Virus record (IMG/VR): IMGVR_UViG_3300020357_000003 | DNA: 64,000 nt | Reading direction: 5' to 3' (one strand) | Source: an uncultured virus (IMG/VR IMGVR_UViG_3300020357_000003) | Taxonomy: Duplodnaviria; Heunggongvirae; Uroviricota; Caudoviricetes | Shown: positions 1 to 61,900 of the stretch, in pieces | Layout of the letters: each line of letters opens with the position of its first letter | Position numbering within the stretch: the stretch's first letter is position 1 | Translations under genes and position numbers: made by a program | Notes under the pieces: generated by a model | The model's input: only the letters and a program-made list of their open reading frames with translations | The model's database searches: none | What the model was told of the DNA's origin: nothing

Positions 1-1635
1 ATAGATAAATCACAAACACTGGATACAATGTATATCAATAGAAACATTCCAGAAGTTGCTGATATATCCGGGATTATGTCTACGACCAATCAACGACATA
101 TGGGAACCTCATTAACTGAGATACTATTACAGAATCCTGCTTATGTACATCCTGCAACAGGTAAACCTGATTTTGCGTTGATTAAATCTAAGATTGATTC
201 GTTTAAAAAGTTTAGTGGTAATTTAGCTAAGAACTTAGGTTTTGATGAGAGGTTTGCTTTTACCCCAATTAGAGATCAAAATAATAGGATTACAGACTAT
301 CGTATAATGATGAATCACTCCGATGTAAAAGAACTTTTACGTCCTGATTTAGAAATTCAAAATGTGTTAGCACATATGGAATCAGGATACGCTGATCGTT
401 CTAACACAATTAAAAATGATATGGATACAATTGATCTTCTCATTCATGAACAAGAGGATCTATATGGTAAACATCCAGAGCAATTTGTAGATTTCTTAGA
501 TCCAGATTCTAAATACATTGATAGATTTAGAAAACTTCCTAAAGCTATTAGAACTTATATACAAGAATATGCCGTAAACGGAACATTTATGGTTAGGGAA
601 GATATTATTGATAAAGTATTTGGATATAGGCAACTTGATATTACTCAAATGAAAGTGTTTGAAGGAGATAGTTGGCTTGCTCAAGTAAGTAAACAAATAG
701 CTGGATTAATGCATTACGCACTTAGACAAACAGTAGGTTATGGTAAAAGTCGGATAGTACTAACCATGCCTGCTGTAGTATTTGGAAATCTACGTTCTAA
801 TGTTTTTCAACTATTGATGCGTAAAATTCCTCTTTCTTTTATCTTTAAGAAAACTATTGAGGGGATTAATGAATATATAAAATATAAAGATCATAATATT
901 CAACATGCTCAACTAATGCACACTATCGAAACTAAAGGCTTGGATAGAGTTAATAGCCCAGAAGCTTTTAAAGCACGTAGATTAATGGATAGAATTCAAC
1001 GTAATAAACTCCATAGAATGAGTGAAGCTGGTTTAAATTCATTAATTGTTGAGGATGTAAATGAAGCACAGATTGATGGTTATTGGAATCGTATGAAACG
1101 TACTATTTTTAAAGGAAAATTTAAAAAGGTTGGTGATAGAATTCCACAAAGCTTACAAACTATCGCATCATGGGCATTCATGACTAAGGGTAGTGCTCCT
1201 TTACAAGCAGCTAGACAATTAGTTCAGATGACTGACTTTATGGGCAGGTATGTAATGATGGAACATGCTATGCATGTTAAAGGACAAGATTTTAGCACGG
1301 CAATGCATGATGCACTTACCGCTTTTGTATTGTTTGATGAAGCGTTGATTCCTGTACTGGAAGCTCTTGACGTTATCGGAGCTACTGCATTCCTTTCGTA
1401 CTACTTACGTAATACTAGAGCATCTAGACAATTACTAAAAACTAGTCCTACAGCTGTAGGTGTTTCTGCTGTAATCCAGGAGATTACAGGAGTACCTACT
1501 TTAGCTAATATAAATAGCTCTTGGCTAGGTGGTCAATTTTCACCTAATGTATTTCAGACTTTTAATTTAGTTGACGAAGCTGATAATGTAACTGGGTATG
1601 AAACTATTATGGATGTAGCTAAGTGGGTAAATTAG
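1..1635 (+). CDS. C-terminal part of N4-type virion RNA polymerase (gp50-like), 5'-truncated
   Basis: Frame open from base 1. C-terminal segment (QMTDFMGRYVMMEH...AFVLFD...YYLRNTR) resembles the N4 vRNAP C-terminus as recalled. Converges on the replication block as in N4. Confidence 0.75.
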   Translation: MDKSQTLDTMYINRNIPEVADISGIMSTTNQRHMGTSLTEILLQNPAYVHPATGKPDFALIKSKIDSFKKFSGNLAKNLGFDERFAFTPIRDQNNRITDYRIMMNHSDVKELLRPDLEIQNVLAHMESGYADRSNTIKNDMDTIDLLIHEQEDLYGKHPEQFVDFLDPDSKYIDRFRKLPKAIRTYIQEYAVNGTFMVREDIIDKVFGYRQLDITQMKVFEGDSWLAQVSKQIAGLMHYALRQTVGYGKSRIVLTMPAVVFGNLRSNVFQLLMRKIPLSFIFKKTIEGINEYIKYKDHNIQHAQLMHTIETKGLDRVNSPEAFKARRLMDRIQRNKLHRMSEAGLNSLIVEDVNEAQIDGYWNRMKRTIFKGKFKKVGDRIPQSLQTIASWAFMTKGSAPLQAARQLVQMTDFMGRYVMMEHAMHVKGQDFSTAMHDALTAFVLFDEALIPVLEALDVIGATAFLSYYLRNTRASRQLLKTSPTAVGVSAVIQEITGVPTLANINSSWLGGQFSPNVFQTFNLVDEADNVTGYETIMDVAKWVN

Positions 1636-2272: not shown

Positions 2273-2857
2273 TTAATCATGAGATCCGAATTCAACCCAT
2301 CCTGTTATAATATACTTTGTTCCTGATAACGGTGGGTTGCCTCGATGTACATGTGTGTATGTTGCTGGAAATAAAATAAATCTGTTTTTTATAGCTTTGA
2401 TTCTTACACTTTGGTGTAAAAATTCCGTTTCTCCTCCTTCTTCTACATCATTTAAAAATAATGAAAAGACTACGAACCTATCACGAGTTGCTGCTGACAT
2501 CATTTCAGTATGCCATGCATGATAGCCTTGGCCTTTTTCAGTTTTTTGAATCTTTAAATCAAAAATTGCATGTTTTTGAAATTGTTTAATAATCGGATAT
2601 GCCTCAACATATTGTGGATAACAGTCATTCCAAAATACTTTATGAAAATCAACAATTCCTAGTGAGCTAATATCCAAATCATTTCCATATAAACTCGTTA
2701 CGAGACTTTGATGTTGATCTTGTACAAATTCAAGTGTGTTTCGATCAATCATTTTTAGCTTATCGAAATACTGGATATAATTATCACAAAGCTGATCTGA
2801 AAAATAATTATCAAATATTCCTATATGATTTTTTATAGTAAATGATTTTTCTTTCAT
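2273..2857 (-). CDS. 2OG-Fe(II) oxygenase, prolyl-hydroxylase-like
   Basis: WHTE...FLNDVEEGGETEF...HVHRGNPP...KYIITGW. Confidence 0.85.
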   Translation of the reverse strand: MKEKSFTIKNHIGIFDNYFSDQLCDNYIQYFDKLKMIDRNTLEFVQDQHQSLVTSLYGNDLDISSLGIVDFHKVFWNDCYPQYVEAYPIIKQFQKHAIFDLKIQKTEKGQGYHAWHTEMMSAATRDRFVVFSLFLNDVEEGGETEFLHQSVRIKAIKNRFILFPATYTHVHRGNPPLSGTKYIITGWVEFGSHD

Positions 2858-7905: not shown

Positions 7906-8225
7906 TCATGTTTTCCTTTCCCCTTAGCAATTGCATCTCTACTGCACATCTGAGCGATAGAGAAATAATTTCTACCATCTGGATAATTATCGAGTGTAGA
8001 CGGATTCCAAACAGATCTAACCATTTTTAACGCTGCCATCTTTAATGCATATAGGTGAGCTTTATTTTCCCAAGGAGATTCTTTTGCGTAATTATCTAAG
8101 GCTGTACATATTTTTGCCCAAGTATTAAAACAATCTAAAGGTGGCCCATATTTTTCTTCTCTATTTTTTATTATCTGGTCGTCTGTCATTTCATTATCTT
8201 TCATCTTTAGTCTCCTTGAAATCAA
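7902..8225 (-). CDS. DUF6378-like small phage protein
   Basis: REEKYG..LDCF...LKMVR...DNYPDGRNY pattern. Confidence 0.55.
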   Translation of the reverse strand: MISRRLKMKDNEMTDDQIIKNREEKYGPPLDCFNTWAKICTALDNYAKESPWENKAHLYALKMAALKMVRSVWNPSTLDNYPDGRNYFSIAQMCSRDAIAKGKGKHE

Positions 8226-8379
8226 TATTTGCTACTGTTTCTGTTACTTCTTCTAAAAAATGAATAGCTACTGAGAGTTGTACATCTTCTTCTTCAGCAG
8301 CTTCTACATCTCTTTCTTGTAAATTTTGTAAGTAGCTTTTTACATATTCTAATTGTTGTTGATTACTTAGTGGCATCAC
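8194..8379 (-). CDS. hypothetical acidic protein
   Basis: GGAGGT RBS, packed operon. Confidence 0.55.
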   Translation of the reverse strand: MMPLSNQQQLEYVKSYLQNLQERDVEAAEEEDVQLSVAIHFLEEVTETVANIDFKETKDER

Positions 8380-8825
8380 CTACCTCCTTTCTTCCAATAA
8401 CCATAGACGCACCTTGTTCCGTTTCTCGATGGATCACAAAGATCATTAATAACTCCATTAATCATTGTTGTGTAATGTTTGGAGACAGCAACAATGAGTC
8501 TGCCTTTTGGCAACTCATCAGGTTTGAGGTGTACTTTGCAACCAGACCCAATCTGCATTGTTGGAGTCCACTTAAAACCTATTGAAGCCATATAGTCCTT
8601 GAACCATTTTCGGCTCGTACTTATGCCATTTCTAGCGGTTCGGGTACGCTTCTTTGTATCATGCTTAGATTTGCGTTGAGTAGAATTACCATGTGCCATA
8701 GCTTCATAGACCTCTTGGTATGGTAACTCACTTGCGATTGCGATTGCCCTGGTAACACAATCGCCAGCCGTTCCTTTGTAGCCAGATTGTTTTCGTCCTC
8801 CATCGTTGTAAACAAATTTCATCAC
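8376..8825 (-). CDS. hypothetical protein, possible Cys-His (papain-like) fold
   Basis: GDCVTRAIAIA...SKHYTTMING; GAGGAGG RBS. Confidence 0.55.
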   Translation of the reverse strand: MMKFVYNDGGRKQSGYKGTAGDCVTRAIAIASELPYQEVYEAMAHGNSTQRKSKHDTKKRTRTARNGISTSRKWFKDYMASIGFKWTPTMQIGSGCKVHLKPDELPKGRLIVAVSKHYTTMINGVINDLCDPSRNGTRCVYGYWKKGGR

Positions 8826-9020
8826 TCACCTCCTCTTATATGATTTAATATTAGCTATATCTGCATCAGCTAATTCAATTCCATATTCTTCATAAAAATT
8901 TTCTTTAACTTGTTTGATTAAATCTTCTTTTGATGTCGCCAAAAGACCATCGCAAGTAAAAAATTCACCCATCCAATTTAGTTGTATTTCATATGAATAT
9001 TCTTTCTGTTTACCTGCCAT
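8826..9020 (-). CDS. hypothetical protein
   Basis: GAGGAGG RBS. Confidence 0.6.
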   Translation of the reverse strand: MAGKQKEYSYEIQLNWMGEFFTCDGLLATSKEDLIKQVKENFYEEYGIELADADIANIKSYKRR

Positions 9021-9471
9021 TACTCACCTCCTCTTCCTTTATTTCTTTAGTAACTAAAGTTACTTGATTGACATTAGATACAACATCGGCAATAGCATTT
9101 TTACTAGCTGTATCTTGTTTCGAAATCCAGACAGGGGAATTAATTGTAAAAGCATTTCCTATCTGAAAGGAACTATTTTTAATAATTGATTCACACATTG
9201 TAAGAAATTCTGCAACAGTTATCGGAGTACTTAAAGGTTCAAATGCCAAATCTTCTGAATATCCATGATAGCTATGAGGATTAGCTGGGTATCTATCCTC
9301 ATACCCATGGTAGACGGAAGAAATAATAACTGGTAAACCAGTTCTTTCTTTCCTTAACGCTTTTATTAAACTACCCAACGTCATTTGATATTCTGCTCTA
9401 TGTTTCTTTCTTTCAGGAATAACACCTTTTGTTATTTCTTTGATTTCATTATCAATCTCGTCTTTATCCAT
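9010..9471 (-). CDS. hypothetical protein (start revised to MDKDEID)
   Basis: AGGAG RBS before ATG at 9471; the longer start would overlap the tRNA; HSYHGYSEDLAFEP motif. Confidence 0.65.
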   Translation of the reverse strand: MDKDEIDNEIKEITKGVIPERKKHRAEYQMTLGSLIKALRKERTGLPVIISSVYHGYEDRYPANPHSYHGYSEDLAFEPLSTPITVAEFLTMCESIIKNSSFQIGNAFTINSPVWISKQDTASKNAIADVVSNVNQVTLVTKEIKEEEVSNGR

Positions 9472-9491
9472 AGCAATTCTCCTATAAAGTA

Positions 9492-9565
9492 TGCCCTTGG
9501 GAGGGATCGAACCTCCACGCACCGATTCTACGACTCAGTTGCTCTGCCATTTGAGCTACAAGGGC
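9492..9565 (-). tRNA. tRNA-like gene (Thr-like body) with 9-nt anticodon loop
   Basis: GCCCTTG-TA-GCTC AAATGGCA GAGC-A-ACTGA GTCGTAGAA TCGGT-GCGT-GGAGG TTCGATC CCTCC-CAAGGGC-A; all four stems pair; no encoded CCA. Confidence 0.85.
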
Positions 9566-9572
9566 AGATTAA

Positions 9573-9806
9573 CTAACTCTCTGATCGACCTAGGCCATAT
9601 TTTTGTTGTATTATTCTACGAGCTTTTTCAGGTAAGTGATTCGGCTTGGGTTCTAACTTATCAGGACACTCAAATACTTCGTTAAATAACTTGTCTACTT
9701 CTTTTACATACTCTTTTTGTGATAAATTCTTAATAGTTATATCTGAAACTAATCTTTTAAATCTCATAATTTCGATCATAGCCTCACCTCTAAAATTAAG
9801 ACGCAC
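9573..9806 (-). CDS. hypothetical protein (start probably 9779)
   Basis: GAGGTG RBS before MIEIMRF. Confidence 0.55.
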   Translation of the reverse strand: MRLNFRGEAMIEIMRFKRLVSDITIKNLSQKEYVKEVDKLFNEVFECPDKLEPKPNHLPEKARRIIQQKYGLGRSES

Positions 9807-9865: not shown

Positions 9866-10234
9866 CTAGGACGTAGATACGCCTTTTTTTCGTTGATATC
9901 TCTCCCATGAGGACTTTCTTTGTGAAACTCTATAGCATTGGTGGCCGCAGTACTTAGCGCACTTATTAGATTTTACTACTTCTTTATGGCAAACAATACA
10001 TTTAATATTGTATTTTTTAGTAATTTTATGAGTTCGTTTAATCCAAGGCCGTAAACCCTTTTTTTCATAGGGTTTTGATTCTTTGGTAATCATGTTATCC
10101 CAATGTTTTCTTTCAGTCGGAGACAAATACCAATCTTCTTTATTTGTTTCATTGTATAACTCTAGGGCTTTTTCCTTTGGAATTTCTTCCTTTAATACTC
10201 CATCTGGTGAGTAAATTCTAATTCCACTAATCAT
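9866..10234 (-). CDS. C4 zinc-finger protein
   Basis: CIVC...YCGHQC; N-terminal IRIYSPDGVL shared with two paralogues. Confidence 0.65.
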   Translation of the reverse strand: MISGIRIYSPDGVLKEEIPKEKALELYNETNKEDWYLSPTERKHWDNMITKESKPYEKKGLRPWIKRTHKITKKYNIKCIVCHKEVVKSNKCAKYCGHQCYRVSQRKSSWERYQRKKGVSTS

Positions 10235-26091: not shown

Positions 26092-26667
26092 ATGTTCTTA
26101 AGCCGTCAAATACACAAAATGAAAGCATCTAATCAACTCCATGAATATATCCATGTAGAACGCTCGACCATTCCAAAAGATATATGCGATTCTACCATAT
26201 CCAAGCTAGATCATAACAAGTGGCAACCTCATGGATGGTCTGATTCGTCTGCAACAAACTACAATTCAAATGATACTAGGGAACTGGGTGTACAGCAATC
26301 CACTAGGGAAGAGAATAAAATCTTTTTACCTTATATGGTGAAAGCTGTAGAGAACTATCAACCGAACCTGATAACACGATTCAGTCTAATACGATTCAAT
26401 AGATACGCACAGGGTCAGATAATGCGTGAACATTTTGACCATATTTATTCATTGTTTGATGGTAGAGAAAAGGGAATCCCTGTATTGAGTTTAATCCTCA
26501 ATCTGAATGACAACTATGAGGGAGCAGATCTATTATTTTGGGACGATTACCGTATATCATTGGGACTAGGAGATATAGTTATCTTTCCATCTATTTTTCT
26601 GTTTCCTCATAAGGTAAGTGAAACTATAAAAGGACAAAGATACTCTGCGGTATCTTGGGCATGGTGA
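26092..26667 (+). CDS. 2OG-Fe(II) oxygenase (HxD...H)
   Basis: RFNRY, EHFDH, LNDNYEG, FPSIFLFPHKV, RYSAVSW. Confidence 0.88.
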   Translation: MFLSRQIHKMKASNQLHEYIHVERSTIPKDICDSTISKLDHNKWQPHGWSDSSATNYNSNDTRELGVQQSTREENKIFLPYMVKAVENYQPNLITRFSLIRFNRYAQGQIMREHFDHIYSLFDGREKGIPVLSLILNLNDNYEGADLLFWDDYRISLGLGDIVIFPSIFLFPHKVSETIKGQRYSAVSWAW

Positions 26668-34140: not shown

Positions 34141-35109
34141 ATGTTTAAAAATATGTATGACAGTCTTTCTTGTGGGGTTCATCTAGAATTACTAGTCTAT
34201 GATGATAAAGTATGCCTTAAAACATGGTCTGAAATTAGTGAAAATGAATTCAATCAAGTAAATGTTGTTAATGACTACACTGTAACACGTAGCTTAACTT
34301 TTTCTGGTGGTAATCCAAAATATATGGAATTTGTGAATGAAGCTAGTGGTGTATACCATAAGTATTTACCAACAGGATATATTTTTGGGGAGATGATCGA
34401 AGGTGAGAAATTTATTCCTAATATGCCTGCTAGTATTAGAGATAATTATGATCATTTAACAGGAACATATTGGAGAAATCATTCATATGCTTTAATTGAT
34501 CCCACTGATCCTTCTATTCATGCAAGTGAAAAAGATGATGTAGCATGTTGGGCAGTAGGCGTTAAAAGTGATGATCATGTTGTTAACCCATTTTATAATA
34601 CGTTAACAGATACATTTCAAACAAAAGCGCATCCATTAAGATCGTTAAGAAAGTATACTGCTCCTGTATCATTAATGCTATATCAACCATTTAAAACAGA
34701 TAAATTTACCGATTGTTCTATGACATTTAAATACAATAAAGGATCTGGATTTAGTACGAATATTTTAGATGGGTGGACAGCGGGAACAGGATATGATTAT
34801 TTAGATCAGATGGGAGATGCATTTCCTAATTTTGAAGTAACTTCTGGTGGTGGCGATATTGATGCTGGAGATACTGATACAGTGAATTTTAAAATGGTTG
34901 ATAAAGACGGTACAACCATTGAAAAAGATTCAACTTTATATTTAGAATCAACAGGAGGGTATTTGCCTAAAACTAGAGTAGATGTTACAAACGGTTTAGG
35001 ATCGTTTAAAGTTACAGCATTAGGCTTGGTAGCTGATGACACATTTAAAGTAAAAATGGGTTTTCGAAATTACACGGGTGTAAAAGATGTTAATTATACG
35101 GTTAAATGA
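34141..35109 (+). CDS. hypothetical protein with C-terminal Ig-like domain
   Basis: C-terminal beta-strand pattern LYLESTGGYLPKTRVDVTNGLGSFKVTALGL. Confidence 0.6.
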   Translation: MFKNMYDSLSCGVHLELLVYDDKVCLKTWSEISENEFNQVNVVNDYTVTRSLTFSGGNPKYMEFVNEASGVYHKYLPTGYIFGEMIEGEKFIPNMPASIRDNYDHLTGTYWRNHSYALIDPTDPSIHASEKDDVACWAVGVKSDDHVVNPFYNTLTDTFQTKAHPLRSLRKYTAPVSLMLYQPFKTDKFTDCSMTFKYNKGSGFSTNILDGWTAGTGYDYLDQMGDAFPNFEVTSGGGDIDAGDTDTVNFKMVDKDGTTIEKDSTLYLESTGGYLPKTRVDVTNGLGSFKVTALGLVADDTFKVKMGFRNYTGVKDVNYTVK

Positions 35110-35882
35110 ACAAACCCGAACATATAGCATATTATGAAAGTCTTACGGATGAGCCAGAGGATTCTGTTCAACATCCCCTAGATCAATTTGCAAAAATTGA
35201 ACAAAAATTTGCAACTCCGTTTCTTGAAAGCGATACTGAGCTTCCCTCTAAAATGCGTCAGGATCTTATTCAAGTTCTTGAAAAGAAAGAGACGGCTCTG
35301 TCTGCACTAAAAGAAAGTGATCCAGAATTTTATGGGATGGCGGAAGCTAAAGGCTTTTATGCTACAACTCATTACAATCTATTTGAAAATCCTTCTGAGT
35401 ACCCCTTTGCCGAACAATCCATCCTTGAATTTGAACAAATTGCTTGTCAGATGATTCGTTACTACATCCGTAAAGGATGGGGAGTTCGTCAGGCTAGTGA
35501 ATTACGATTAGAAGGACGCTGTTTTGGGAATGTTCAAATTCCTGGAGCCAGAACATATCCTCATTATCATCAATCTGTTGATGGTGTTCTTGTACATTAC
35601 TTGTCTATTGGGGATGGGGATTTTATGAAAGGGGCTGAGACATCTCCTCGACATGGAACACATAAAGTTTTATTTATGGATCCCCGCCCAGCAATTAATT
35701 ATCCTTATTGGGAAAAGGTACATGCAGTTACTCCTAGAGTTGGATTAACACTAATTCATCCTAACTACCTATGGCATGAAACAAATCCTTGGTTGGGACA
35801 AGGAACACGAGTGTGTATAGTTGTAAATTTTCGTGTAATGTCTCATGGGTATAATGAACTAAGCCAACCTTTAAGAGGATAG
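35106..35882 (+). CDS. 2OG-Fe(II)-type oxygenase (HxH...H)
   Basis: PHYH, VHYL, FMDPRP, HPNYLWHET, RVCIVVNF. Confidence 0.8.
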   Translation: MNKPEHIAYYESLTDEPEDSVQHPLDQFAKIEQKFATPFLESDTELPSKMRQDLIQVLEKKETALSALKESDPEFYGMAEAKGFYATTHYNLFENPSEYPFAEQSILEFEQIACQMIRYYIRKGWGVRQASELRLEGRCFGNVQIPGARTYPHYHQSVDGVLVHYLSIGDGDFMKGAETSPRHGTHKVLFMDPRPAINYPYWEKVHAVTPRVGLTLIHPNYLWHETNPWLGQGTRVCIVVNFRVMSHGYNELSQPLRG

Positions 35883-35883
35883 C

Positions 35884-36471
35884 ATGTCATATTGTGTTCA
35901 TGAACTGTTTTCTGTTCCTCTTATTCATCTCCAATTTAACCAACATCATAAATATACGAATCTTCCCATTATTAGGAAAAAGGACAAAAGACCAGCAAAT
36001 TGGACTATGTCAGTTAATACTTCTTACCCTAATATTGTAAAAGATGATGAATTTATTAGTTTGCATACTGCTAATGAATTAAAGCTTGATATTAGTAATG
36101 CAATTACTACTGCATTTAAAGATATTAATATTTCTACCAATTTTAATATATTTTCTTTTTGGTACAATATTTATCATGAACATCAAGGACAAGAACCACA
36201 CAATCATATTGGGAATGTAAATCCCTATTGGTGTGGGACATACTATAATAAAAATGCAACACCAACGATTTTTTATAAAGAACAAGGTATACGTGATATT
36301 CATATCATGCCAGATTGGGACGAAAGTAAACTTAGATTATCATTTACACCCGTTTCAAAAATTGATATGAACGAGGGGGATATTCTTTTATTTCCCCCAT
36401 ATCTTACGCATTCAGTTCCTGAACAGGAACAGTATAGAGTTACTTTTTCATTTAACCTTATTAGGAAATAA
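35884..36471 (+). CDS. 2OG-Fe(II)-type oxygenase (TIGR02466-like)
   Basis: WYNIY, QEPHNH, FPPYLTHSV, RVTFSFN. Confidence 0.82.
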   Translation: MSYCVHELFSVPLIHLQFNQHHKYTNLPIIRKKDKRPANWTMSVNTSYPNIVKDDEFISLHTANELKLDISNAITTAFKDINISTNFNIFSFWYNIYHEHQGQEPHNHIGNVNPYWCGTYYNKNATPTIFYKEQGIRDIHIMPDWDESKLRLSFTPVSKIDMNEGDILLFPPYLTHSVPEQEQYRVTFSFNLIRK

Positions 36472-36472
36472 T

Positions 36473-37219
36473 ATGTTTGAATCAGGGCCAGGTAAAGACT
36501 TACAAGTCACACATGAGTGGCCTACTATTATTGGTACCGAAATAATTGAACTACCCCAGATAATGAAAGATGTTCTTGTTAAAGTAATTAAAAGACAAGA
36601 TAGCGTTTTTACAGAGCATACATATAATAAAACAAATAAAACTACGGCTGAATTAGCCGCATTTGACGAAAAAATCTATAATATATTTGACTATTCACGT
36701 TATGATACAGAAGGAGAAATAACGCAGATTAAAGCATTTGAAAAAATTATGTCAAAAGTAATTAGAACTTATGTTACTGAAGCATGGCAAGTAGACCCAC
36801 ATGTAGAAATTAATGTTCGAGGTTTTGGTAATGTTCAGAATACATTTGGAAGAAGAACAGCACCTCATTTTCATCATGGTTGGGATGGTGTTTTAGCTCA
36901 TTATGTAACAGTAGGTAATGAATATGAATCGGATGTTCCCATGACGCCTATGGATACACCGTATAGTGGGCAATTGTTATTATTAGATACACGACCAAGT
37001 ACATGCATTCCTGATGGTGATGTCAGAAATGATGTTGTACGTTTAAATCCTGTTAATGGATTAACTGTTATTCACCCTGGTTATGTATGGCATGAAACTC
37101 ATACACATACTCAAACTGGGGATCGAGTTCTTGTTGCAATCAATTTTCATATATGGAATCGTAATTTTGATGAACTACCAACATCTTTGGACAACTCCTA
37201 TAGGCCAAGTTCAAATTAA
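36473..37219 (+). CDS. 2OG-Fe(II)-type oxygenase (HxH...H)
   Basis: PHFH, AHYV, LDTRP, HPGYVWHET, RVLVAINF. Confidence 0.8.
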   Translation: MFESGPGKDLQVTHEWPTIIGTEIIELPQIMKDVLVKVIKRQDSVFTEHTYNKTNKTTAELAAFDEKIYNIFDYSRYDTEGEITQIKAFEKIMSKVIRTYVTEAWQVDPHVEINVRGFGNVQNTFGRRTAPHFHHGWDGVLAHYVTVGNEYESDVPMTPMDTPYSGQLLLLDTRPSTCIPDGDVRNDVVRLNPVNGLTVIHPGYVWHETHTHTQTGDRVLVAINFHIWNRNFDELPTSLDNSYRPSSN

Positions 37220-37862
37220 TCTTGATGAAGATTTAAGAAGATCTTTGGTTCAATGTGTTGTTCAGAACTACATTCAACGAATGGACGCACAAGAACCTGT
37301 GCCTTCATTTATAGATTTATTTGATTATACGCAATATGCACATCAAGATAAGTTAGAGATATTTAAAGCTGTGCATAGGTTTGAACTAATTATTAGTAAA
37401 ATTATTAGAACCTACGCTAAACAAGCTTGGAATATATCTTCTGACATACCAATAAGTATGCATTGTACAAGCAAAATTCATCAGCCCTTTGAAATGAGAG
37501 TAGAACCGCATAGGCATAATAGTACAGATATTTGCATAATTCATTACTTAACTGCTGGAGGTGAGTTTCATTTAGATAATCATAATCCTCCTGAGCCATT
37601 AAATAATGACTATAGTGGGGATTTGCTAATATTAGATCCTAGGCCAAATATTACATATCCTTACAATGAAAAAGCAAAAACATTTAGACCCCAAACTGGG
37701 ACAACTATAGTTCATCCTGGGTATGTTTGGCATGAAACCCACCAACATACCAAGGATGGGTTACGAATTTGTTTAATTGTTAATGCTGAAATAGATAGAG
37801 AATCCAAAGTACATCCATCTTTACAACAATTAATTAAACTACGTCCAGTGAGCCTCGTATGA
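37170..37862 (+). CDS. 2OG-Fe(II)-type oxygenase (HxH...H), start revised to MNYQHLW
   Basis: PHRH, IHYL, LDPRP, HPGYVWHET, RICLIVN. Confidence 0.8.
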   Translation: MNYQHLWTTPIGQVQINLDEDLRRSLVQCVVQNYIQRMDAQEPVPSFIDLFDYTQYAHQDKLEIFKAVHRFELIISKIIRTYAKQAWNISSDIPISMHCTSKIHQPFEMRVEPHRHNSTDICIIHYLTAGGEFHLDNHNPPEPLNNDYSGDLLILDPRPNITYPYNEKAKTFRPQTGTTIVHPGYVWHETHQHTKDGLRICLIVNAEIDRESKVHPSLQQLIKLRPVSLV

Positions 37863-39229
37863 AATTTAAATTATTATTAGAAAAAGCTGAAAAAGAATTA
37901 ATTCTGATTTATGACAATATGACATCAGAATTAAGGTATGAAAATGGTGATATTGTTATTCCTCAAAATGAATTTGTGAATTGGGAACCTTTTTATAAGA
38001 TGGATGCGGGTAAACGAAATCTTGTTAAAATTAAAATTCAGCTTGGATTAAAATGTAACTATTCTTGTACATATTGTTCTCAGCGGTTTGTTCCAAGAAA
38101 TCCTGGTGACAACCCCCAAACCTATGAATCTGTAGATTTGGATGCTATTAATACGTTTATTAAACGATTTGACACAATTAGTATAGGTGAAACTATTCAT
38201 TTTGAAATGTGGGGTGGGGAGCCATTTATGTATTTTGGCAGTATGAAGCATATTACTGAGCAACTTCATAAAAAATTTCCACATGCTACGTTTAGCGTTA
38301 TTACGAATGGATCTCTTTTAACTGATGAAATAGTGGAGTTTTTATTTAAGCACGGGTTTTCTGTCTCCCTTTCGCATGATGCGGTAGGTCAGGAGACTAG
38401 GGGACGTGATCCTTTAGATAATGCGGATTCAAAACGATTACTATTTAAATTACGTAATGCATTAGTTCCTCAAGGAAAATTTTCTGTTAACACGATGATT
38501 CATAAAGATAATGACTCCCGAGCGGATGTTCAAAAATGGATTAAAAATGTTTTTGGAGTAGTTCCTATTGGGGAAGCTGGAACAGTTGATGCTTATGACG
38601 AAGGTGGCACAGCAATGTCTTGGCAAACACCTGAAGAGCATATTGCGTATAGAAGAAAAGCTTTTAATGAAATTATGAATGGAAAATTAAAACCTGTTCA
38701 AATGGACATTGTACCTCGAAAAATTGAAGGGTTTATTTCCACCCTAAAGCAACAGACCCCAGCTAGTTCCTTAATGCAAAAATGCACAATGGATCGTCCT
38801 GATGTAATGGCAGTAGATCTCAGTGGAAATGTCACGACCTGTCAAAATGTAACAGCATCAAGTCAAAATATGGCAGGAATTTCCCATAAAATTGGGCATA
38901 TGGATGATTTGGAAAGCGTCAATATAGCAACAGGAACACATTGGTCAGATCGGGAAGAATGCCCAAAATGCCCTGTACTTCATTTATGCCAAGGTGCTTG
39001 TTTATTCTTGCCTTCTGGCTCACAAGAATGGAAACTTTCCTGCGATAATTCATATTCCGATAATGTTGTCTGGTTAGCTGCTAGTTTATATGAGCTTACG
39101 GGGCATATCTTGTATCGTATTGAAAATGACGAATTACCTGAATATAGAAAAGACATATTTGGCTTTAATACAACAAAATATGCTGTGGAGGATGAAAATA
39201 GTGCTAAGATATTAGCAGGTAAAGCATGA
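37859..39229 (+). CDS. radical SAM/SPASM-domain enzyme (peptide/protein maturase type)
   Basis: CNYSCTYC, WGGEPF, ITNGSLL, C...GNVTTC, CPKCPVLHLCQGAC...C. Confidence 0.93.
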   Translation: MKFKLLLEKAEKELILIYDNMTSELRYENGDIVIPQNEFVNWEPFYKMDAGKRNLVKIKIQLGLKCNYSCTYCSQRFVPRNPGDNPQTYESVDLDAINTFIKRFDTISIGETIHFEMWGGEPFMYFGSMKHITEQLHKKFPHATFSVITNGSLLTDEIVEFLFKHGFSVSLSHDAVGQETRGRDPLDNADSKRLLFKLRNALVPQGKFSVNTMIHKDNDSRADVQKWIKNVFGVVPIGEAGTVDAYDEGGTAMSWQTPEEHIAYRRKAFNEIMNGKLKPVQMDIVPRKIEGFISTLKQQTPASSLMQKCTMDRPDVMAVDLSGNVTTCQNVTASSQNMAGISHKIGHMDDLESVNIATGTHWSDREECPKCPVLHLCQGACLFLPSGSQEWKLSCDNSYSDNVVWLAASLYELTGHILYRIENDELPEYRKDIFGFNTTKYAVEDENSAKILAGKA

Positions 39230-42362: not shown

Positions 42363-43002
42363 CTTTTTTCACGAAATATTTTCTGTTCCTCTGTGGATAG
42401 GGAATTTTTATCGAAAAGAATCAAACGATAGAATTTTAGGTTTGGTCGAAGAGTTTAGAAGAGGAAATAAGAACGCTGCCTTAGTAGGCAACGAATGGAA
42501 TTACAAAACCATTACTGATAACAAAGATCTACAGGCCGAAACAGGCGTAACATCTTATGCCACCGCAAATTTAACACAAATTCCCGATTGGTTTCCAACA
42601 GTTCTAGAATTGCAAGCGTGGTCGCATCAAATGATCTCTACTATCTGGGATGTAGATCGAATTATGGGTCAGATGACAATTAGTAATATGTGGACTACTA
42701 TTTATCCAGAAAAGTCTTTTGTTCCTGAACATACTCATAATGGAAGTATGATTTCAGGGGTCTACTATGCAAAAGCTCACGAAAATTGTGGGGATCTTGT
42801 TTTTCACGATCCAGCGTGGGTTGCAAAATCTATGGTACTAAACAGCGGAACTACTTTCCCAATTAAAGGCACTAAGCAAAAAGTAAGTCCCAAAACAGGA
42901 GATCTTATTTTGTTTCCTTCTTGGCTACCTCATTCAACTGAATTTAATGAGACAACTGAAGATAGAATAATAGTGAGCTTTAATTTTCAATTTACTTCTT
43001 AA
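42352..43002 (+). CDS. 2OG-Fe(II)-type oxygenase (TIGR02466-like), probable ATA start
   Basis: EHTH, ISGVYY, FHDP, FPSWLPHS, RIIVSFN; frame extends upstream of 42442 with HEIFSVPLW. Confidence 0.8.
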   Translation: MKNNFFHEIFSVPLWIGNFYRKESNDRILGLVEEFRRGNKNAALVGNEWNYKTITDNKDLQAETGVTSYATANLTQIPDWFPTVLELQAWSHQMISTIWDVDRIMGQMTISNMWTTIYPEKSFVPEHTHNGSMISGVYYAKAHENCGDLVFHDPAWVAKSMVLNSGTTFPIKGTKQKVSPKTGDLILFPSWLPHSTEFNETTEDRIIVSFNFQFTS

Positions 43003-43018
43003 ATATCCATAAAGATAG

Positions 43019-43579
43019 GTGATACAGCATAATACATTTGCAGAAACTGTAGGAATCTACAACGGTGAGCAATCTCTCGTAGGCTCTACTGTAACTTATA
43101 TTTACCAGTTAAAACATAAGTACCCCGAATCCGATGGTTATTCTAACCACGGGGGCTGGCAAAAAGAGTTAGACCTAGACCATCCAATAAAACATACTAT
43201 TCTAAAGCAATTCAAAGAATACCTTAAATGGTATTGCGTAGAAGAACCTCGATGGATGGACTGTACCAGTTTATTTTGTAATGTAAATCCACCAGGTTCA
43301 TCTAATGTAATGCATCATCATAAAGTAGGGGAATTTAGTGGTGTATTGTGGTTACAAGCAGAAAGCAACTCTGGCGATATTGTGGTAATGAACCCATTTT
43401 ATAATAGATTTATGAACACATGCATTAAGTCACTTGAAAGGGACTATAATGCCCTGTATATAACACCTGAACCAAATAAAGGGGCATTCTTTAATAGTAA
43501 TTTAGTTCATTATGTTGATATCAATAGATCGCAAACAGATAGGATTTCAATAGGTTATAATATCGGAATTCACTATTAA
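43019..43579 (+). CDS. 2OG-Fe(II)-type oxygenase (TIGR02466-like)
   Basis: SNHGGWQ, NVMHHH, FSGVLW, LVHYV, RISIGYN. Confidence 0.82.
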   Translation: MIQHNTFAETVGIYNGEQSLVGSTVTYIYQLKHKYPESDGYSNHGGWQKELDLDHPIKHTILKQFKEYLKWYCVEEPRWMDCTSLFCNVNPPGSSNVMHHHKVGEFSGVLWLQAESNSGDIVVMNPFYNRFMNTCIKSLERDYNALYITPEPNKGAFFNSNLVHYVDINRSQTDRISIGYNIGIHY

Positions 43580-58935: not shown

Positions 58936-61900
58936 ATGGCACTTAAAGAAGAGCTACATAACGCAGACATTGTTCAAGCGTTAACTAATGGCGCAACTCC
59001 ACCAAAACCTTCCGCAAGAGACTCCCTTTTACAGACTAAAGCCGCTAGTTTAGCTAATGTACTAAATGCTAAACGCAATAGTGTCCATAATCTTAAAGCT
59101 ACTAGATTAGCACAGGTTATAAATCACAAATATGGTATGGGTGGGGCAACTCCCAATGTAGTCGGTACTAACAGTGATACTTTATCTACAGGTGAATTTG
59201 GTAATGTTACGTTTTCTGATAAAGTAAATCCAGACCCTGTAGTTACAGATGTAACAGCTGACCCTCTTACTACTCCTAAATCTTTTACAGAAGAAAATGA
59301 GATTTTTACGGCTATAGATGGAGCTGCTGAAGAATTTGGACTTCCTAAAGCATTATTTCGTTCGTTAGTTTTTGAAGAATCAGGCAATAAACAAACTGCT
59401 AAATCTCCAACCAATGTTAGAGGTATAGCTCAAGTAACACAACAAACCATGGAAGAAATGTTACCTGGTGGCGATGTAAATAATGCCGCTCATCAGTTGT
59501 ATGCTGGAGCTAAGTACTTATCTAAGCATGTTAATAGATGGAAACTTAAAGGATTTGACGAACGACAAGCTCAACAGTTAGCTGCTGCATCATATAATAC
59601 TGGTTTTAGTCGTGTGCTGGAAGCTATTAAAGCAACTAAAAAAACTCATCCTACAATGCAAGAAATAGAAACTGCTGGTATTGCTCTATTTAAACAACGA
59701 CCATTTAAAGGTGGAGTTAAAGAAGGCCCTGGTGGAAAAAAAGTAGCTACCAAAAAACGTAAAGATCTTGATAGTTTTAAAGAAGGTATGGGGCATTGGA
59801 AAAAAATTCATTACAAAGATGGTGTATTACAAGATTTTACTAAACCTACTCCTCAAACACCGTTTGTTACAAAAATGCCAGAAGCAGTTGAGGAGACGTC
59901 CAAGCCAGTATCTAGTCAAACACATAAACCAGAAGACAAACCAACACCTCCTCCTATTAAAACAATTGATCCATCTGTTGATATTAGTGCTCCTGGTGGT
60001 ATTGCAAAGGCTGTACAAGAAGCTCCTCCTGCTGATGTAGATTTACGAGATACTGGGGCAGATCGTAGAAAAGCTGAAAGACTACAAGCACAAAGAAGAG
60101 AATTTAAACGAATAGATGAACTTAGAAAAATTACTAATAAGGCAGATAAAGAAGAAGTTGTTTTAACACCTACTCACAAATTACCTCATCTTAAAGAGCA
60201 CAAGCCTCCTACACCTATTACTAAACCTCCTAGTGTTGATATAGATAGAAGAGATCCAGGTAAAGACCGTGCAAGAGCAGAAAAACTGCAAGCAGAACAA
60301 CGAAAATTTAAAAGAATAGATCAAGAACTAAGTAGCCGTAAAAAACAAAAGAAGTTTAGTGTGGATAGTCTTAGTGGTTATGGAGATTTTGCAACTGGAC
60401 GTCAGGATCTTTCCGCAAATCAGTATTTAAATTCTGGTCTTGATACCATTATGGACAATGTCCAGACCAATAAAAAAATTATAGAAGATAAACATGATTC
60501 TGCTTATTTTGATAACAAACGTAAACAAGCTCTTACAAAGAGAGCAGAAATTATTTCTGATCCTAAAGGAACTTATCAACAACCTGCTGTTACTCCTGAA
60601 GTTCCAGAAACGGTACCAGAAGTAACACCAGAAGCAGTTCCGCAAATAGATGTTCCAGAGCCAGATATTTATAGTCCTCGATCTGTACCAAAAACAGTTA
60701 GTGAAAATATTTATAGTCCTGCTACTCCTCGCCCTGCTGAGGCTAAAACTTATGAGGATTTATACAGTTCTTACAAAACTCCTAATGAAGCACTGATTAA
60801 AGAAATTTATAAACTACCAGATTTTACTCCATCATCTCCAATAGTATCTGTAAATCGTAACTTAGTAGAATTACAAGATGGAACATATCGTCTACTTACA
60901 CAAGACGGTACATGGATGCCTTTTAGCGATAAAATCGAAGCTCAAGTATTCATGGCTTATGATATTGCAAACTATCAAGCTAATCTTTTGGATCATCCTG
61001 AAGAAACATCAGTATCAGGAATGTACAATAAATTAGTAGGAGGTTTAGTTGATCCTGTTGAAACTATATTTCAAGGATTTGTAGGAGCTACAACTTTAAC
61101 AGAACATATTAATGATCATAATAATAGACTTAAAGCTGGAAGTTTTCTGTCGTCTATTACACATGATCCTAATGATGAAATTACTCAGCAAGACAAATTA
61201 AACTATTTAGCAATTCAAGAAAATAAAGGACTATCAGCTGAGTTGCAGGCATTTAAGGATAGTGAAAAGTATCAAGTAATTGCTACTTTAGATAAGGATG
61301 CGAAAGAAAACCAAGACCAACAAGCTAAGCTTAAAGAATTCTCTAAAATATGGCATGAAGCACATCCATATAATAGAAAATATATTGAAAGTGCTACTAC
61401 AGCAATGCGTGTAATTGCTAAAGAGCATGGCAATGCGGCAGCAGCTTTAGAGCTATTTAAAGAATACAAAGGTACTCTTGCCCTACAAGGTCTTGATAGT
61501 TTTGGATATACGGTAGCATTAGTATATGGAAATATACCTGTCCAACTTGGGCTACTTACTGGCTTAGCTAGAGGCAGAACTAAGGCTAATATTGAGCAGT
61601 ATGTTGCCGAGCATGGTGAAAAGGCATTAACACCTGAAATACTTACGGATATTAAAATATTTTCTACTTTACAAGAAGTATCTGAAAAAGTAAGTGCAGG
61701 TATAGTTGTAAAACAACTTAAATTAATCCCAGGATTAGGTGGTGCTGGTTTATGGGGCACACAGATAACGAATGGTGTATTGGCAACTATACATCCTACT
61801 GTACGTACGTTAGGTAAAGTAGTATGGGCTCCTCCTAAAATGTTTGGTGCTGAGTTTGTACAAGGAACAACTAATTCAATGCTGGAACAAGCGGCATTAC

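What the first reader, a model, noticed from the sequence alone, without database searches (positions are those of the whole stretch)
9492..9565. Otherwise intact tRNA with a 9-nt anticodon loop
Seen: well-paired acceptor, D and T arms, but the stem ACTGA/TCGGT closes GUCGUAGAA (9 nt rather than 7). Read from U33 the anticodon is CGU (Thr, consistent with G1-C72, C2-G71, A73) with 2 extra nt. Read from the centre it is GUA. Known: enlarged loops cause frameshift or quadruplet decoding, and phage tRNAs can evade or decoy host anticodon nucleases. Inference: the intact arms argue for selection rather than decay, so it may be a frameshift suppressor, a nuclease decoy or a non-translational aminoacyl donor.
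Basis: partly seen in the sequence, partly recalled or inferred. Interest (0 to 1): 0.7.

Follow-up and report, generated by a model that had tools for sequence, protein, structure and literature searches.

The report
Non-decoding tRNA look-alike in phage
An uncultured marine N4-like phage carries a gene shaped like a threonine tRNA with nine instead of seven bases in its anticodon loop, and its counterparts in related phages also have odd loops or a hairpin there, so the RNA is probably kept for its shape rather than for reading codons.

Summary
Window 9492-9565 (minus strand) is a well-formed tRNA (Rfam 47.9 bits, cut-off 29). Its 5-bp anticodon stem ACUGA/UCGGU closes the 9-nt loop GUCGUAGAA. 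The loop is not an assembly error: it recurs in four IMG/VR contigs, one metagenome contig and contigs of independent sequencing runs.

It descends from tRNA-Thr. It is 83% identical to tRNA-Thr(CGU) of the one cellular assembly that carries this phage, and differs by a 2-nt insertion after the anticodon.

The new point is that it belongs to a family. At the same spot (small ORF, tRNA, 154-aa ORF, between exonuclease and primase) in a clade of uncultured marine N4-like phages, 26 of 27 distinct homologues have non-standard anticodon arms. These are loops of 8-10 nt, 7-nt loops without U33, or a 6-7-bp hairpin insert. Acceptor, D and T arms are kept by compensatory changes. In cellular tRNAs matched by the same body pattern, 54 of 57 have standard loops.

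The likeliest reading is a non-decoding tRNA-shaped RNA. It may be a processing signal in the operon transcript or a trans-acting tRNA mimic. Its function is untested.

Residual ACG decoding or frameshifting by this particular variant is not excluded.

This scan has noted other phage tRNA look-alikes before, but not this family.

The parts
9492..9565 (-). tRNA-Thr-derived tRNA-like gene, 74 nt, no encoded CCA
   Evidence: Rfam RF00005 scores 47.9 bits. Own model R1 scores 85.7 bits and is the only hit in the window with filters off; the next best is 10.3 bits. Sequence read.
9526..9534 (-). 9-nt anticodon loop GUCGUAGAA: U33-CGU-A as in tRNA-Thr(CGU), plus 2 extra nt, with G in place of U32
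   Evidence: No indel here in independent contigs.
9535..9539 (-). Anticodon stem, 5' strand ACUGA
   Evidence: In the family 3 of 5 pairs of this stem change on both sides.
9521..9525 (-). Anticodon stem, 3' strand UCGGU
9559..9565 (-). Acceptor stem, 5' strand GCCCUUG; its 3' strand CAAGGGC is at 9493-9499 and the discriminator A at 9492
   Evidence: The same 7-nt strand is in 21 of 26 full-length distinct homologues of the protein-anchored sample.
9541..9556 (-). D arm GCUC AAAUGGCA GAGC, with A14, G18, G19 and A21
   Evidence: these positions are invariant in 16 of 16 sequences.
9500..9516 (-). T arm GGAGG UUCGAUC CCUCC
   Evidence: T54, T55, C56, A58 and C61 are invariant; 2 of 5 stem pairs are compensatory.
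9573..9806 (-). Small ORF 'up77' (77 aa from GTG, 68 aa from the ATG at 9779). Its TAG stop ends 7 nt before tRNA position 1. No known family.
   Evidence: A homologue lies upstream in 36 of 41 loci with the tRNA-like gene and in 2 of 14 loci without it.
9010..9471 (-). ORF 'down154' (153 aa). An AGGAGA Shine-Dalgarno lies at 9483-9478 and the ATG starts 20 nt after the discriminator. No known family or fold.

Best explanation
SHOWN. The gene makes, or at least encodes, a tRNA-shaped RNA that descends from a threonine tRNA. It belongs to a conserved family found at one fixed spot in the replication-gene block of a clade of uncultured marine N4-like phages. In that family the cloverleaf body is kept and the anticodon arm is free to change in length and sequence.

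INFERRED, about 0.75. The RNA is kept for its tRNA body and does not work as a normal triplet decoder.

MECHANISM I COMMIT TO, INFERRED, about 0.4. The element is transcribed as part of the polycistronic transcript; it has no spacer for a promoter of its own. It folds into the L-shape and is recognised by the host's tRNA-processing enzymes. RNase P would cut at position 1. An RNase E-type cut with exonuclease trimming would act behind the discriminator. This separates the up77 message from the downstream message a few bases before its Shine-Dalgarno sequence. It would be a phage 't-element', or tRNA punctuation mark, that sets mRNA ends and half-lives. The released RNA may in addition act in trans (see the first rival).
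For: Body under selection:
- 97.9% of pair cells are paired, 8 pairs are compensatory and 0 of 500 shuffles reach this.
- The tertiary nucleotides A14, G18, G19, T54, T55, C56 and A58 are invariant in 16 of 16 sequences.

Loop not under decoding constraint:
- In the sample anchored on the neighbouring protein, which is unbiased with respect to the tRNA, 41 of 55 loci carry the element.
- Of its 27 distinct sequences 26 are non-standard: 8-10-nt loops, 7-nt loops with G33 or A33, irregular arms, and 9 with a hairpin insert. The one standard loop, Thr(UGU), sits at another spot in the most distant group.
- Control: the same body pattern in cellular genomes gives 54 of 57 standard loops.
- The anticodon loop is the most variable region, at 1.18 bits.
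- MFE folds of the 4 insert forms that were folded (4 of 4) give a long continuous arm.

Position fits punctuation:
- An upstream ORF stops within -1 to 12 nt of position 1 in 23 of 27 distinct sequences.
- A downstream ORF starts 6-23 nt after the discriminator in 24 of 27.
- In locus L297 the same slot after up77 holds two long GC-rich hairpins with T-runs instead of the tRNA shape.
- The element and up77 are gained and lost together.

No sign of a decoding need: all large genes are intact and no split gene was seen.

Precedent: plant mitochondrial t-elements are tRNA-like folds that direct RNase P and RNase Z cuts at mRNA ends (PMC1920247; abstract and passages read).
Against: - No RNA data exist, so neither expression nor processing is shown.
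- Punctuation does not need an anticodon stem, yet that stem is kept by compensatory changes and is even lengthened.
- Punctuation does not need a particular acceptor sequence, yet GCCCUUG/CAAGGGC is nearly fixed, in 21 of 26 full-length distinct sequences. This hints at a sequence-specific reader.
- The one held assembly that carries this phage (G001) has no RNase Z above the cut-off, best 31 bits against 293. It encodes CCA in 29 of 30 tRNA genes. A clean cut behind the discriminator is therefore not assured.
- This particular variant keeps U33-CGU-A, and the phage uses ACG twice as often as the G001 sample: 112 of 972 Thr codons against 28 of 531. This would fit a still-useful Thr(CGU) decoder.
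- L297 is a single case.
- Tight packing is usual in phage genomes.
Confidence: 0.4

Rival explanations
1. Trans-acting tRNA mimic. The excised RNA binds a protein that recognises the tRNA body and the Thr-type acceptor stem. The protein might be a tRNA-directed host defence nuclease, ThrRS, or the phage's own up77. The RNA cannot be used or cut like a real tRNA because its anticodon arm is misshapen, so it would act as a decoy, sponge or RNP cofactor.
For: - The whole L-shape is conserved, including the anticodon stem.
- The acceptor sequence is nearly fixed.
- The anticodon loop is hypervariable.
- Distribution is accessory and linked to a small conserved ORF.
- tRNA-targeting defences and phage tRNA counter-measures are an active arms race (PMC10264068, PMC11555353, PMC12445682, PMC13056530; search listings and abstracts only).
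Against: - No defence nuclease or binding partner was identified.
- Loop divergence between close relatives is no greater than that of the flanking DNA, so relaxed constraint explains it without an arms race.
- The eLife paper on phage tRNA loop mutations does not contain the words insertion or decoy.
- up77 has no recognisable RNA-binding family, and its model is of low confidence.
Confidence: 0.3
2. Working decoder. The 9-nt loop still presents CGU, the RNA is charged with threonine, and it reads ACG either as a triplet or with a +1/+2 shift (frameshift suppressor or quadruplet reader).
For: - U33-CGU-A and the G1-C72 and C2-G71 pairs are intact.
- ACG makes up 11.5% of phage Thr codons against 5.3% in the G001 sample.
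- Mutant tRNAs with 9- or 10-nt loops have been studied as frameshifters in E. coli (PMC5009743, passage read).
- Yeast mitochondria use a tRNA-Thr with an 8-nt loop (PMC3113583, abstract).
Against: - Relatives at the same spot carry unrelated loop sequences or no loop at all.
- No split or frameshifted gene is present.
- ACG is not avoided by the phage, so an efficient frameshifter at ACG would damage its own proteins.
- CCA is not encoded, although 29 of 30 tRNA genes of G001 encode it.
Confidence: 0.12
3. Non-translational aminoacyl donor. The RNA is charged with threonine but is used by a transferase rather than the ribosome.
For: The Thr-type acceptor stem is conserved. G001 holds a PolyA_pol-family nucleotidyltransferase that could add CCA.
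Against: - That bacterial ThrRS relies on G35 and U36 is recalled knowledge. Most relatives lack these bases at the right place.
- The discriminator varies among A, G, C and U.
- No transferase-like gene lies nearby.
Confidence: 0.04
4. Decaying or neutral relic of a once useful phage tRNA-Thr.
For: The loop is disrupted. The element is absent from 14 of 55 related loci, some of which have too little upstream DNA to judge.
Against: - Compensatory changes occur in all four stems.
- The tRNA body is 69-86% identical to the window's in relatives outside its own near-identical strain group. In the same loci up77 falls to as little as 27% and down154 to about 40-58% amino-acid identity.
- Non-standard forms persist throughout a clade of 38 tree rows.
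Confidence: 0.05
5. Assembly or sequencing artefact.
For: None.
Against: The same loop is found in independent assemblies and runs.
Confidence: 0.01

Closest known systems
Canonical bacterial or phage tRNA-Thr (Rfam RF00005), e.g. tRNA-Thr(CGU) of assembly G001
   Same: Cloverleaf, tertiary nucleotides, G1-C72 and C2-G71, and the anticodon-stem 5' strand ACUGA. 83% identity. The loop holds U-CGU-A.
   Different: The loop has 9 nt instead of 7, with G32. CCA is not encoded. All syntenic relatives are also non-standard.
Frameshift-suppressor tRNAs with 8-10-nt anticodon loops (E. coli mutants reviewed in PMC5009743); sufJ, a tRNA-Thr derivative, is recalled and was not found in the held text
   Same: Extra nucleotides in the anticodon loop of an otherwise intact tRNA.
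   Different: Those are laboratory mutants that keep a defined anticodon and act at a matching site. Here the loop is not conserved among homologues and no target site exists.
Yeast mitochondrial tRNA-Thr1(UAG) with an 8-nt loop (PMC3113583, PMC4756836; abstracts seen)
   Same: A natural threonine tRNA with an enlarged anticodon loop.
   Different: That one is a proven decoder with a dedicated synthetase and a fixed loop. Its origin is different (tRNA-His). It is organellar, not viral.
Plant mitochondrial t-elements (PMC1920247; abstract and passages read) and the mitochondrial tRNA punctuation model (recalled)
   Same: tRNA-like folds without decoding function, with a conserved T arm, placed at mRNA borders and cut by tRNA-processing enzymes.
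   Different: Different lineage and host. Processing of the phage element is untested. The phage element keeps a much more complete tRNA body and a fixed acceptor sequence.
tRNA-like stable RNAs of phages T4 (RNA C and D) and T5. These are recalled and were named in earlier notes of this scan; no paper on them was retrieved.
   Same: Phage-encoded RNAs related to tRNAs that cannot decode and whose function is unknown.
   Different: Those lie inside tRNA gene clusters of large phages and are longer. This one is a lone 74-nt element between protein genes of an N4-like phage.
mascRNA from MALAT1 (recalled)
   Same: A tRNA-like cloverleaf with a degenerate anticodon loop that is cut out of a longer transcript by RNase P and RNase Z.
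   Different: Eukaryotic nuclear RNA; analogy only.

Membership tests
tRNA (Rfam RF00005) | Score above the family's gathering cut-off, with a four-arm cloverleaf | tested here: met
   47.9 bits against a cut-off of 29. All stems pair.
tRNA (functional elongator) | 7-nt anticodon loop with U33 and a purine at position 37 | tested here: not met
   The loop has 9 nt. The only 7-nt reading needs a G.A closing pair and puts C at position 33.
tRNA (functional elongator) | Conserved tertiary nucleotides: U8, A14, G18, G19, T54, Psi55, C56, A58 | tested here: met
   All are present in the window. They are invariant or nearly so in 16 homologues.
tRNA (functional elongator) | Aminoacylation and use on the ribosome | not testable with these tools
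   No RNA run holds the stretch.
tRNA-Thr | Homology to Thr tRNAs and the acceptor pairs G1-C72 and C2-G71 | tested here: met
   83% identity to tRNA-Thr(CGU) of G001. Among 55 distinct cellular sequences with 7-nt loops matched by the same body pattern, 49 carry Thr anticodons (GGT 47, CGT 2).
tRNA-Thr | Anticodon NGU conserved among orthologues | tested here: not met
   CGU stands at the canonical offset in only a minority of the 27 distinct syntenic homologues. The others have unrelated triplets or a hairpin.
tRNA-Tyr (ARAGORN's label) | Long variable arm of bacterial tRNA-Tyr (recalled) and a true 7-nt loop around GUA | tested here: not met
   The variable region is 4 nt. GUA is central only in a forced register.
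Frameshift-suppressor or quadruplet-decoding tRNA | Enlarged anticodon loop | tested here: met
   9 nt.
Frameshift-suppressor or quadruplet-decoding tRNA | A gene or site that needs the shift, and conservation of the extended anticodon | tested here: not met
   No split genes among the ORFs of the window that were scanned. The loop is not conserved.
tRNA-like processing element (t-element or punctuation) | tRNA-like fold without a usable anticodon, sitting directly at ORF borders | tested here: met
   23 of 27 upstream spacers and 24 of 27 downstream spacers are at most 23 nt.
tRNA-like processing element (t-element or punctuation) | Cleavage by RNase P and 3' enzymes, with mRNA ends at its borders | not testable with these tools
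   No RNA data. G001 shows no RNase Z above the cut-off.
Decoy for an anticodon or tRNA nuclease | A cognate nuclease in the host, and binding without cleavage | not tested

The most novel reading that the evidence does not exclude
The up77 ORF and the tRNA look-alike form a two-part phage module. In it a threonine-tRNA mimic keeps the acceptor end and L-shape that a host tRNA-directed enzyme recognises. That enzyme could be a defence nuclease of the PrrC, RloC, PARIS, Schlafen or OLD kind, or ThrRS itself. The mimic presents an anticodon arm that cannot be cut or used, and so blocks the enzyme. The ever-changing arm, from 8-10-nt loops up to a 13-bp rod, would be the trace of an arms race.
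Probability: 0.2. Interest if true: 0.85.

Novelty: new variant of a known kind. Interest (0 to 1): 0.66.

Why it matters
Phage tRNAs are now read mainly as codon supplements or as replacements for tRNAs destroyed by host defences. Here a whole phage lineage has kept a tRNA body for a long time while giving up the anticodon loop. That points to a use of the tRNA shape that is neither of these.

The family is compact at 72-98 nt. It has natural variants that range from a 7-nt loop to a long rod, it sits in a fixed context, and it is linked to one small ORF. This makes the question of what phage tRNA look-alikes are for testable with simple constructs.

There is also a practical side. Annotation tools name these genes Tyr, Lys, Asn, Glu or amber suppressor. 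Such labels would distort surveys of phage tRNA content and searches for recoding.

Tried and rejected
- Expression: no RNA holder is listed for the stretch. The three metatranscriptome runs offered hold next to none of its words. All runs that were laid are contigs, so no RNA ends could be read.
- Base-pairing target for the loop: the complement TTCTACGAC occurs exactly only in the tRNA itself. With one mismatch there are 18 sites against 9.1 expected, spread over both strands without pattern. This was dropped.
- Neighbour proteins: up77, down154 and four other small neighbouring ORFs (window 8194-8379, 8376-8825, 8826-9020, 9866-10234) have no Pfam match. PHROGs, which was not run on 8194-8379, gives only one family of unknown function, for 8376-8825. 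The down154 profile finds nothing in PDB sequences, best E about 1. The protein atlas gives only unnamed viral clusters at 0.84 or below. The down154 model (pLDDT 79.8) has no Foldseek match at E <= 0.001, and its best VIA-align Z is 4.0. The up77 model has pLDDT 69.6 and three helices; it was not searched.
- RNase Z in G001: no match above the cut-off. The argument 'no CCA, therefore an RNase Z substrate' was therefore dropped.
- Cultured relatives: megablast of the region against phage records gave nothing. The best primase match is 47%. The tRNA has only generic 60-80% matches to other phage tRNAs, apart from one record in the 80-90% band that is not among the 25 rows listed.
It served only as a control.
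- The own assembly is not held. G001 and G002 were used instead; G001 may only carry the phage.
No pair count was made; single-sequence folds were used instead.
- Literature: seven searches found no description of phage tRNAs with enlarged anticodon loops or of this family. Supplements were not read.
- Earlier notes of this scan: none for this genome or this sequence.

Full report
THE WINDOW. It is almost wholly an N4-like (Schitoviridae-type) phage genome.
- A giant virion RNA polymerase gene runs off both ends of the window.
- The minus-strand block 1.7-22 kb holds an N4-type RNA polymerase, DNA polymerase, helicase, exonuclease, primase, an Sak4-like annealing protein and SSB.
- The plus-strand block holds terminase, portal, major head and tail genes.
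- No PHROG match is annotated as an integrase.
- The closest cultured phages share at most 47% of the primase sequence, so this is an uncultured lineage.
- The sequencing runs that hold the stretch are marine metagenomes.
- The window's own assembly is not held. A 1.4-Mb, 40-contig cellular assembly (G001) carries 96% of its words, and an IMG/VR record (G002) carries 71%. G001 is treated below as a possible host only.

THE OBSERVATION. On the minus strand, 9565 to 9492 reads GCCCUUG UA GCUC AAAUGGCA GAGC A ACUGA GUCGUAGAA UCGGU GCGU GGAGG UUCGAUC CCUCC CAAGGGC A.
- Rfam's tRNA model scores 47.9 bits (cut-off 29, E = 3e-9) and shows two extra bases in the anticodon loop.
- Nothing else in the window reaches any Rfam cut-off.
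- A family-specific model finds no second copy.
- ARAGORN reports tRNA-Tyr(gta) at 9491-9566. Its drawing shows that it shifts the acceptor stem by one base and closes a 7-nt loop UCGUAGA with a G.A mismatch. The label is an artefact of the program's loop-size rule.

NOT AN ERROR.
- The identical loop is in G001:C22 and G002 and in 4 of 4 IMG/VR contigs that share the 3' half.
- It is in the only metagenome contig found when the loop was left free at 5-14 nt.
- Contigs of runs X17 and X18, from two studies other than the possible sources, cover the gene with one substitution in the variable region and no indel.
- Run X17 also holds the 10-nt-loop relative.

ANCESTRY.
- tRNA-Thr(CGU) of G001 is 83% identical.
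- In the pairwise alignment the phage gene has G for U32 and two extra bases after U36/A37. Acceptor pairs 3-70 and 4-69 are changed on both sides.
- Cellular tRNAs that match the same body pattern are mostly Thr.

THE FAMILY. Eighty loci were fetched by similarity to the exonuclease gene upstream.
- ARAGORN found tRNAs in 21 of them, and 19 of these are homologues of the window's gene.
- Only three, L061-L063, are a standard Thr(tgt). The others were called Tyr, Lys, Asn, Glu or '???' with 2- or 4-base anticodons.
- Rfam added two more homologues, in L052 and L067.

A second sample was anchored on the downstream protein and so is blind to the tRNA. It gave 55 loci.
- Model R1, built from 16 homologues, hit 41 of them, giving 27 distinct sequences.
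- One has a standard loop (CUUGUAA).
- The other 26 have loops of 8 nt (GUUUGGAA, GCUUCGAA, UUUUAAUA, UUACCAUA, UGAUUAGA), 9 nt (GUCGUAGAA, UUAUUUCAA) or 10 nt (UUCUUGGAAA).
- Others have 7-nt loops without U33 (UGCUAGA, UGAUAGA, CAUUAGG) or irregular arms (UUCGUUAGAA, UUCUUUAGAA).
- Nine carry an insert that lengthens the arm by a 6-7-bp pyrimidine/purine helix with a 3-15-nt cap.
- Pattern scans added UAAUAGA and UGAUUAAA.

All odd forms lie in the same order: exonuclease, orf122, up77, tRNA, down154, DUF6378 gene, primase. Look-alikes with standard loops lie in unrelated DNA.

As a control, the same body pattern in 57 distinct cellular sequences gave 54 standard loops. The exceptions are two Woesearchaeota genes with intron-like inserts and one Treponema gene with C33.

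SELECTION.
- Over 16 homologues 97.9% of pair cells are paired. Eight of 21 pairs change on both sides, including three of five in the anticodon stem. No shuffle or slid register comes near.
- Mean column entropy is 0.17 bits in the acceptor stem, 0.43 in the T loop, 0.52 in the D loop and 1.18 in the anticodon loop. This is the reverse of what one expects for one isoacceptor.
- That alignment includes sequences found through acceptor-based patterns. In the blind sample the strand GCCCUUG is still present in 21 of 26 full-length distinct sequences.
- Outside the window's own near-identical strain group, the tRNA body stays 69-86% identical to the window's. In the same loci up77 falls to as little as 27% and down154 to about 40-58% amino-acid identity.
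- Between the window and its nearest distinct relative (L042) the tRNA region is 77-90% identical, like its flanks. The loop therefore looks unconstrained rather than demonstrably driven.

PHYLOGENY. A tree was built from down154 (44 rows, one small protein, midpoint root; mosaicism is likely).
- A basal group of six has no odd tRNA.
- A clade of 38 (support 97/93) holds all the odd forms, with short-loop and insert forms interleaved.
- The window's type is sister to the 10-nt-loop type and nested among other odd forms.

The 9-nt loop is thus one state of a long-lived non-standard element and not a fresh lesion in a working tRNA.

CONTEXT.
- In 23 of 27 distinct sequences an upstream ORF stops between -1 and 12 nt from position 1. 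In 24 of 27 a downstream ORF starts 6-23 nt after the discriminator (mechanical ORF rules).
- In the window the TAG of up77 ends 7 nt before the tRNA. AGGAGA and the ATG of down154 follow within 20 nt.
- An up77 homologue is present in 36 of 41 loci with the element and in 2 of 14 without it. A filter-free search of eight empty loci found nothing.
- One of the two exceptions, L297, has two long GC-rich hairpins with T-runs in the slot.
- None of the 26 distinct sequences whose 3' trailer was printed encodes CCA.
- G001 encodes CCA in 29 of 30 tRNA genes; the exception is Thr(CGU). It has one PolyA_pol-family ORF and no RNase Z above the cut-off.

DECODING TESTS.
- No gene in the window is split or needs a frameshift.
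- ACG makes up 112 of 972 Thr codons in phage ORFs against 28 of 531 in G001 ORFs near its tRNA genes.
- An efficient ACG frameshifter would therefore hurt the phage. A plain ACG reader would help it.
- This keeps a residual decoding role open for this variant, which retains U-CGU-A. Mutant tRNAs with 9- or 10-nt loops are known to act on E. coli ribosomes (PMC5009743, passage).

READING.
- Shown: a real, conserved, tRNA-Thr-derived gene whose anticodon arm is not conserved.
- Inferred: it is kept for its body.
- I rank a cis role as a processing mark first. Tight wedging between ORFs, linkage to up77, hairpins in the same slot in L297 and the t-element precedent (PMC1920247) support it.
- A trans role as a tRNA mimic comes second. 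It would better explain the fixed acceptor sequence and the maintained, lengthened anticodon stem.
- Neither role is tested.

IN PRINT. Seven searches and passages of PMC7609411 and PMC10264068 gave no report of phage tRNAs with enlarged anticodon loops.

Earlier notes of this scan describe other phage tRNA look-alikes, one of them in an N4-like phage. There are none for this sequence.

Noticed in passing
window 2273-2857, 26092-26667, 35106-37862, 42442-43579; radical SAM gene at 37859-39229: Eight ORFs match 2OG-Fe(II) oxygenase PHROGs. Four stand in a row and are followed by a radical SAM gene. This is an unusually large paralogue set for a phage of about 70 kb.
   Followed up: no
L297:1165-1375: In one relative the slot after up77 holds no tRNA shape but two long GC-rich hairpins, each followed by a T-run (terminator-like). 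The fold z-score is -4.8.
   Followed up: partly
L313, L323, L318, L317, L312, L300, L327, L324, L299 (coordinates): A subfamily with D arm GCUU/AAGC has the anticodon loop replaced by a bulge plus a 6-7-bp YUCUUCY/RGAAGAR helix capped by 3-15 nt. It is interleaved with short-loop forms in the neighbour-protein tree.
   Followed up: partly
window 9614-9622 (minus-strand reading CUCGUAGAA, inside up77): Eight of the nine loop bases recur 88 nt upstream inside the up77 coding sequence. This is probably chance.
   Followed up: no
window 1-1635 and 58936-63999: The virion RNA polymerase gene is cut by both ends of the window, so the window is a permuted cut of a genome of about 70 kb. Logan contigs of 113 and 143 kb contain the stretch, and a 70.8-kb metagenome contig holds the same tRNA.
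   Followed up: no
G001 tRNA loci L004-L033: 29 of 30 tRNA genes of this 1.4-Mb assembly encode CCA. The exception is tRNA-Thr(CGU), the closest cellular relative of the phage gene. No RNase Z is found above the cut-off.
   Followed up: partly
L119, L148, L154, L170 (variant v1) and L149 (variant v29): Other viral contigs without this synteny carry further odd tRNA-like genes with the same acceptor stem. One is a 79-nt form on four contigs and one a 69-nt form. ARAGORN calls the first '???' and misses the second.
   Followed up: no
window 9573-9779 (up77) and alignment A7: The C-terminal half of up77, CPDKLEPKPNHLPEKARKIIQQKYGLGRSE, is nearly invariant among its 11 closest relatives (65-94% identical to it overall), right up to the stop codon that abuts the tRNA.
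   Followed up: partly
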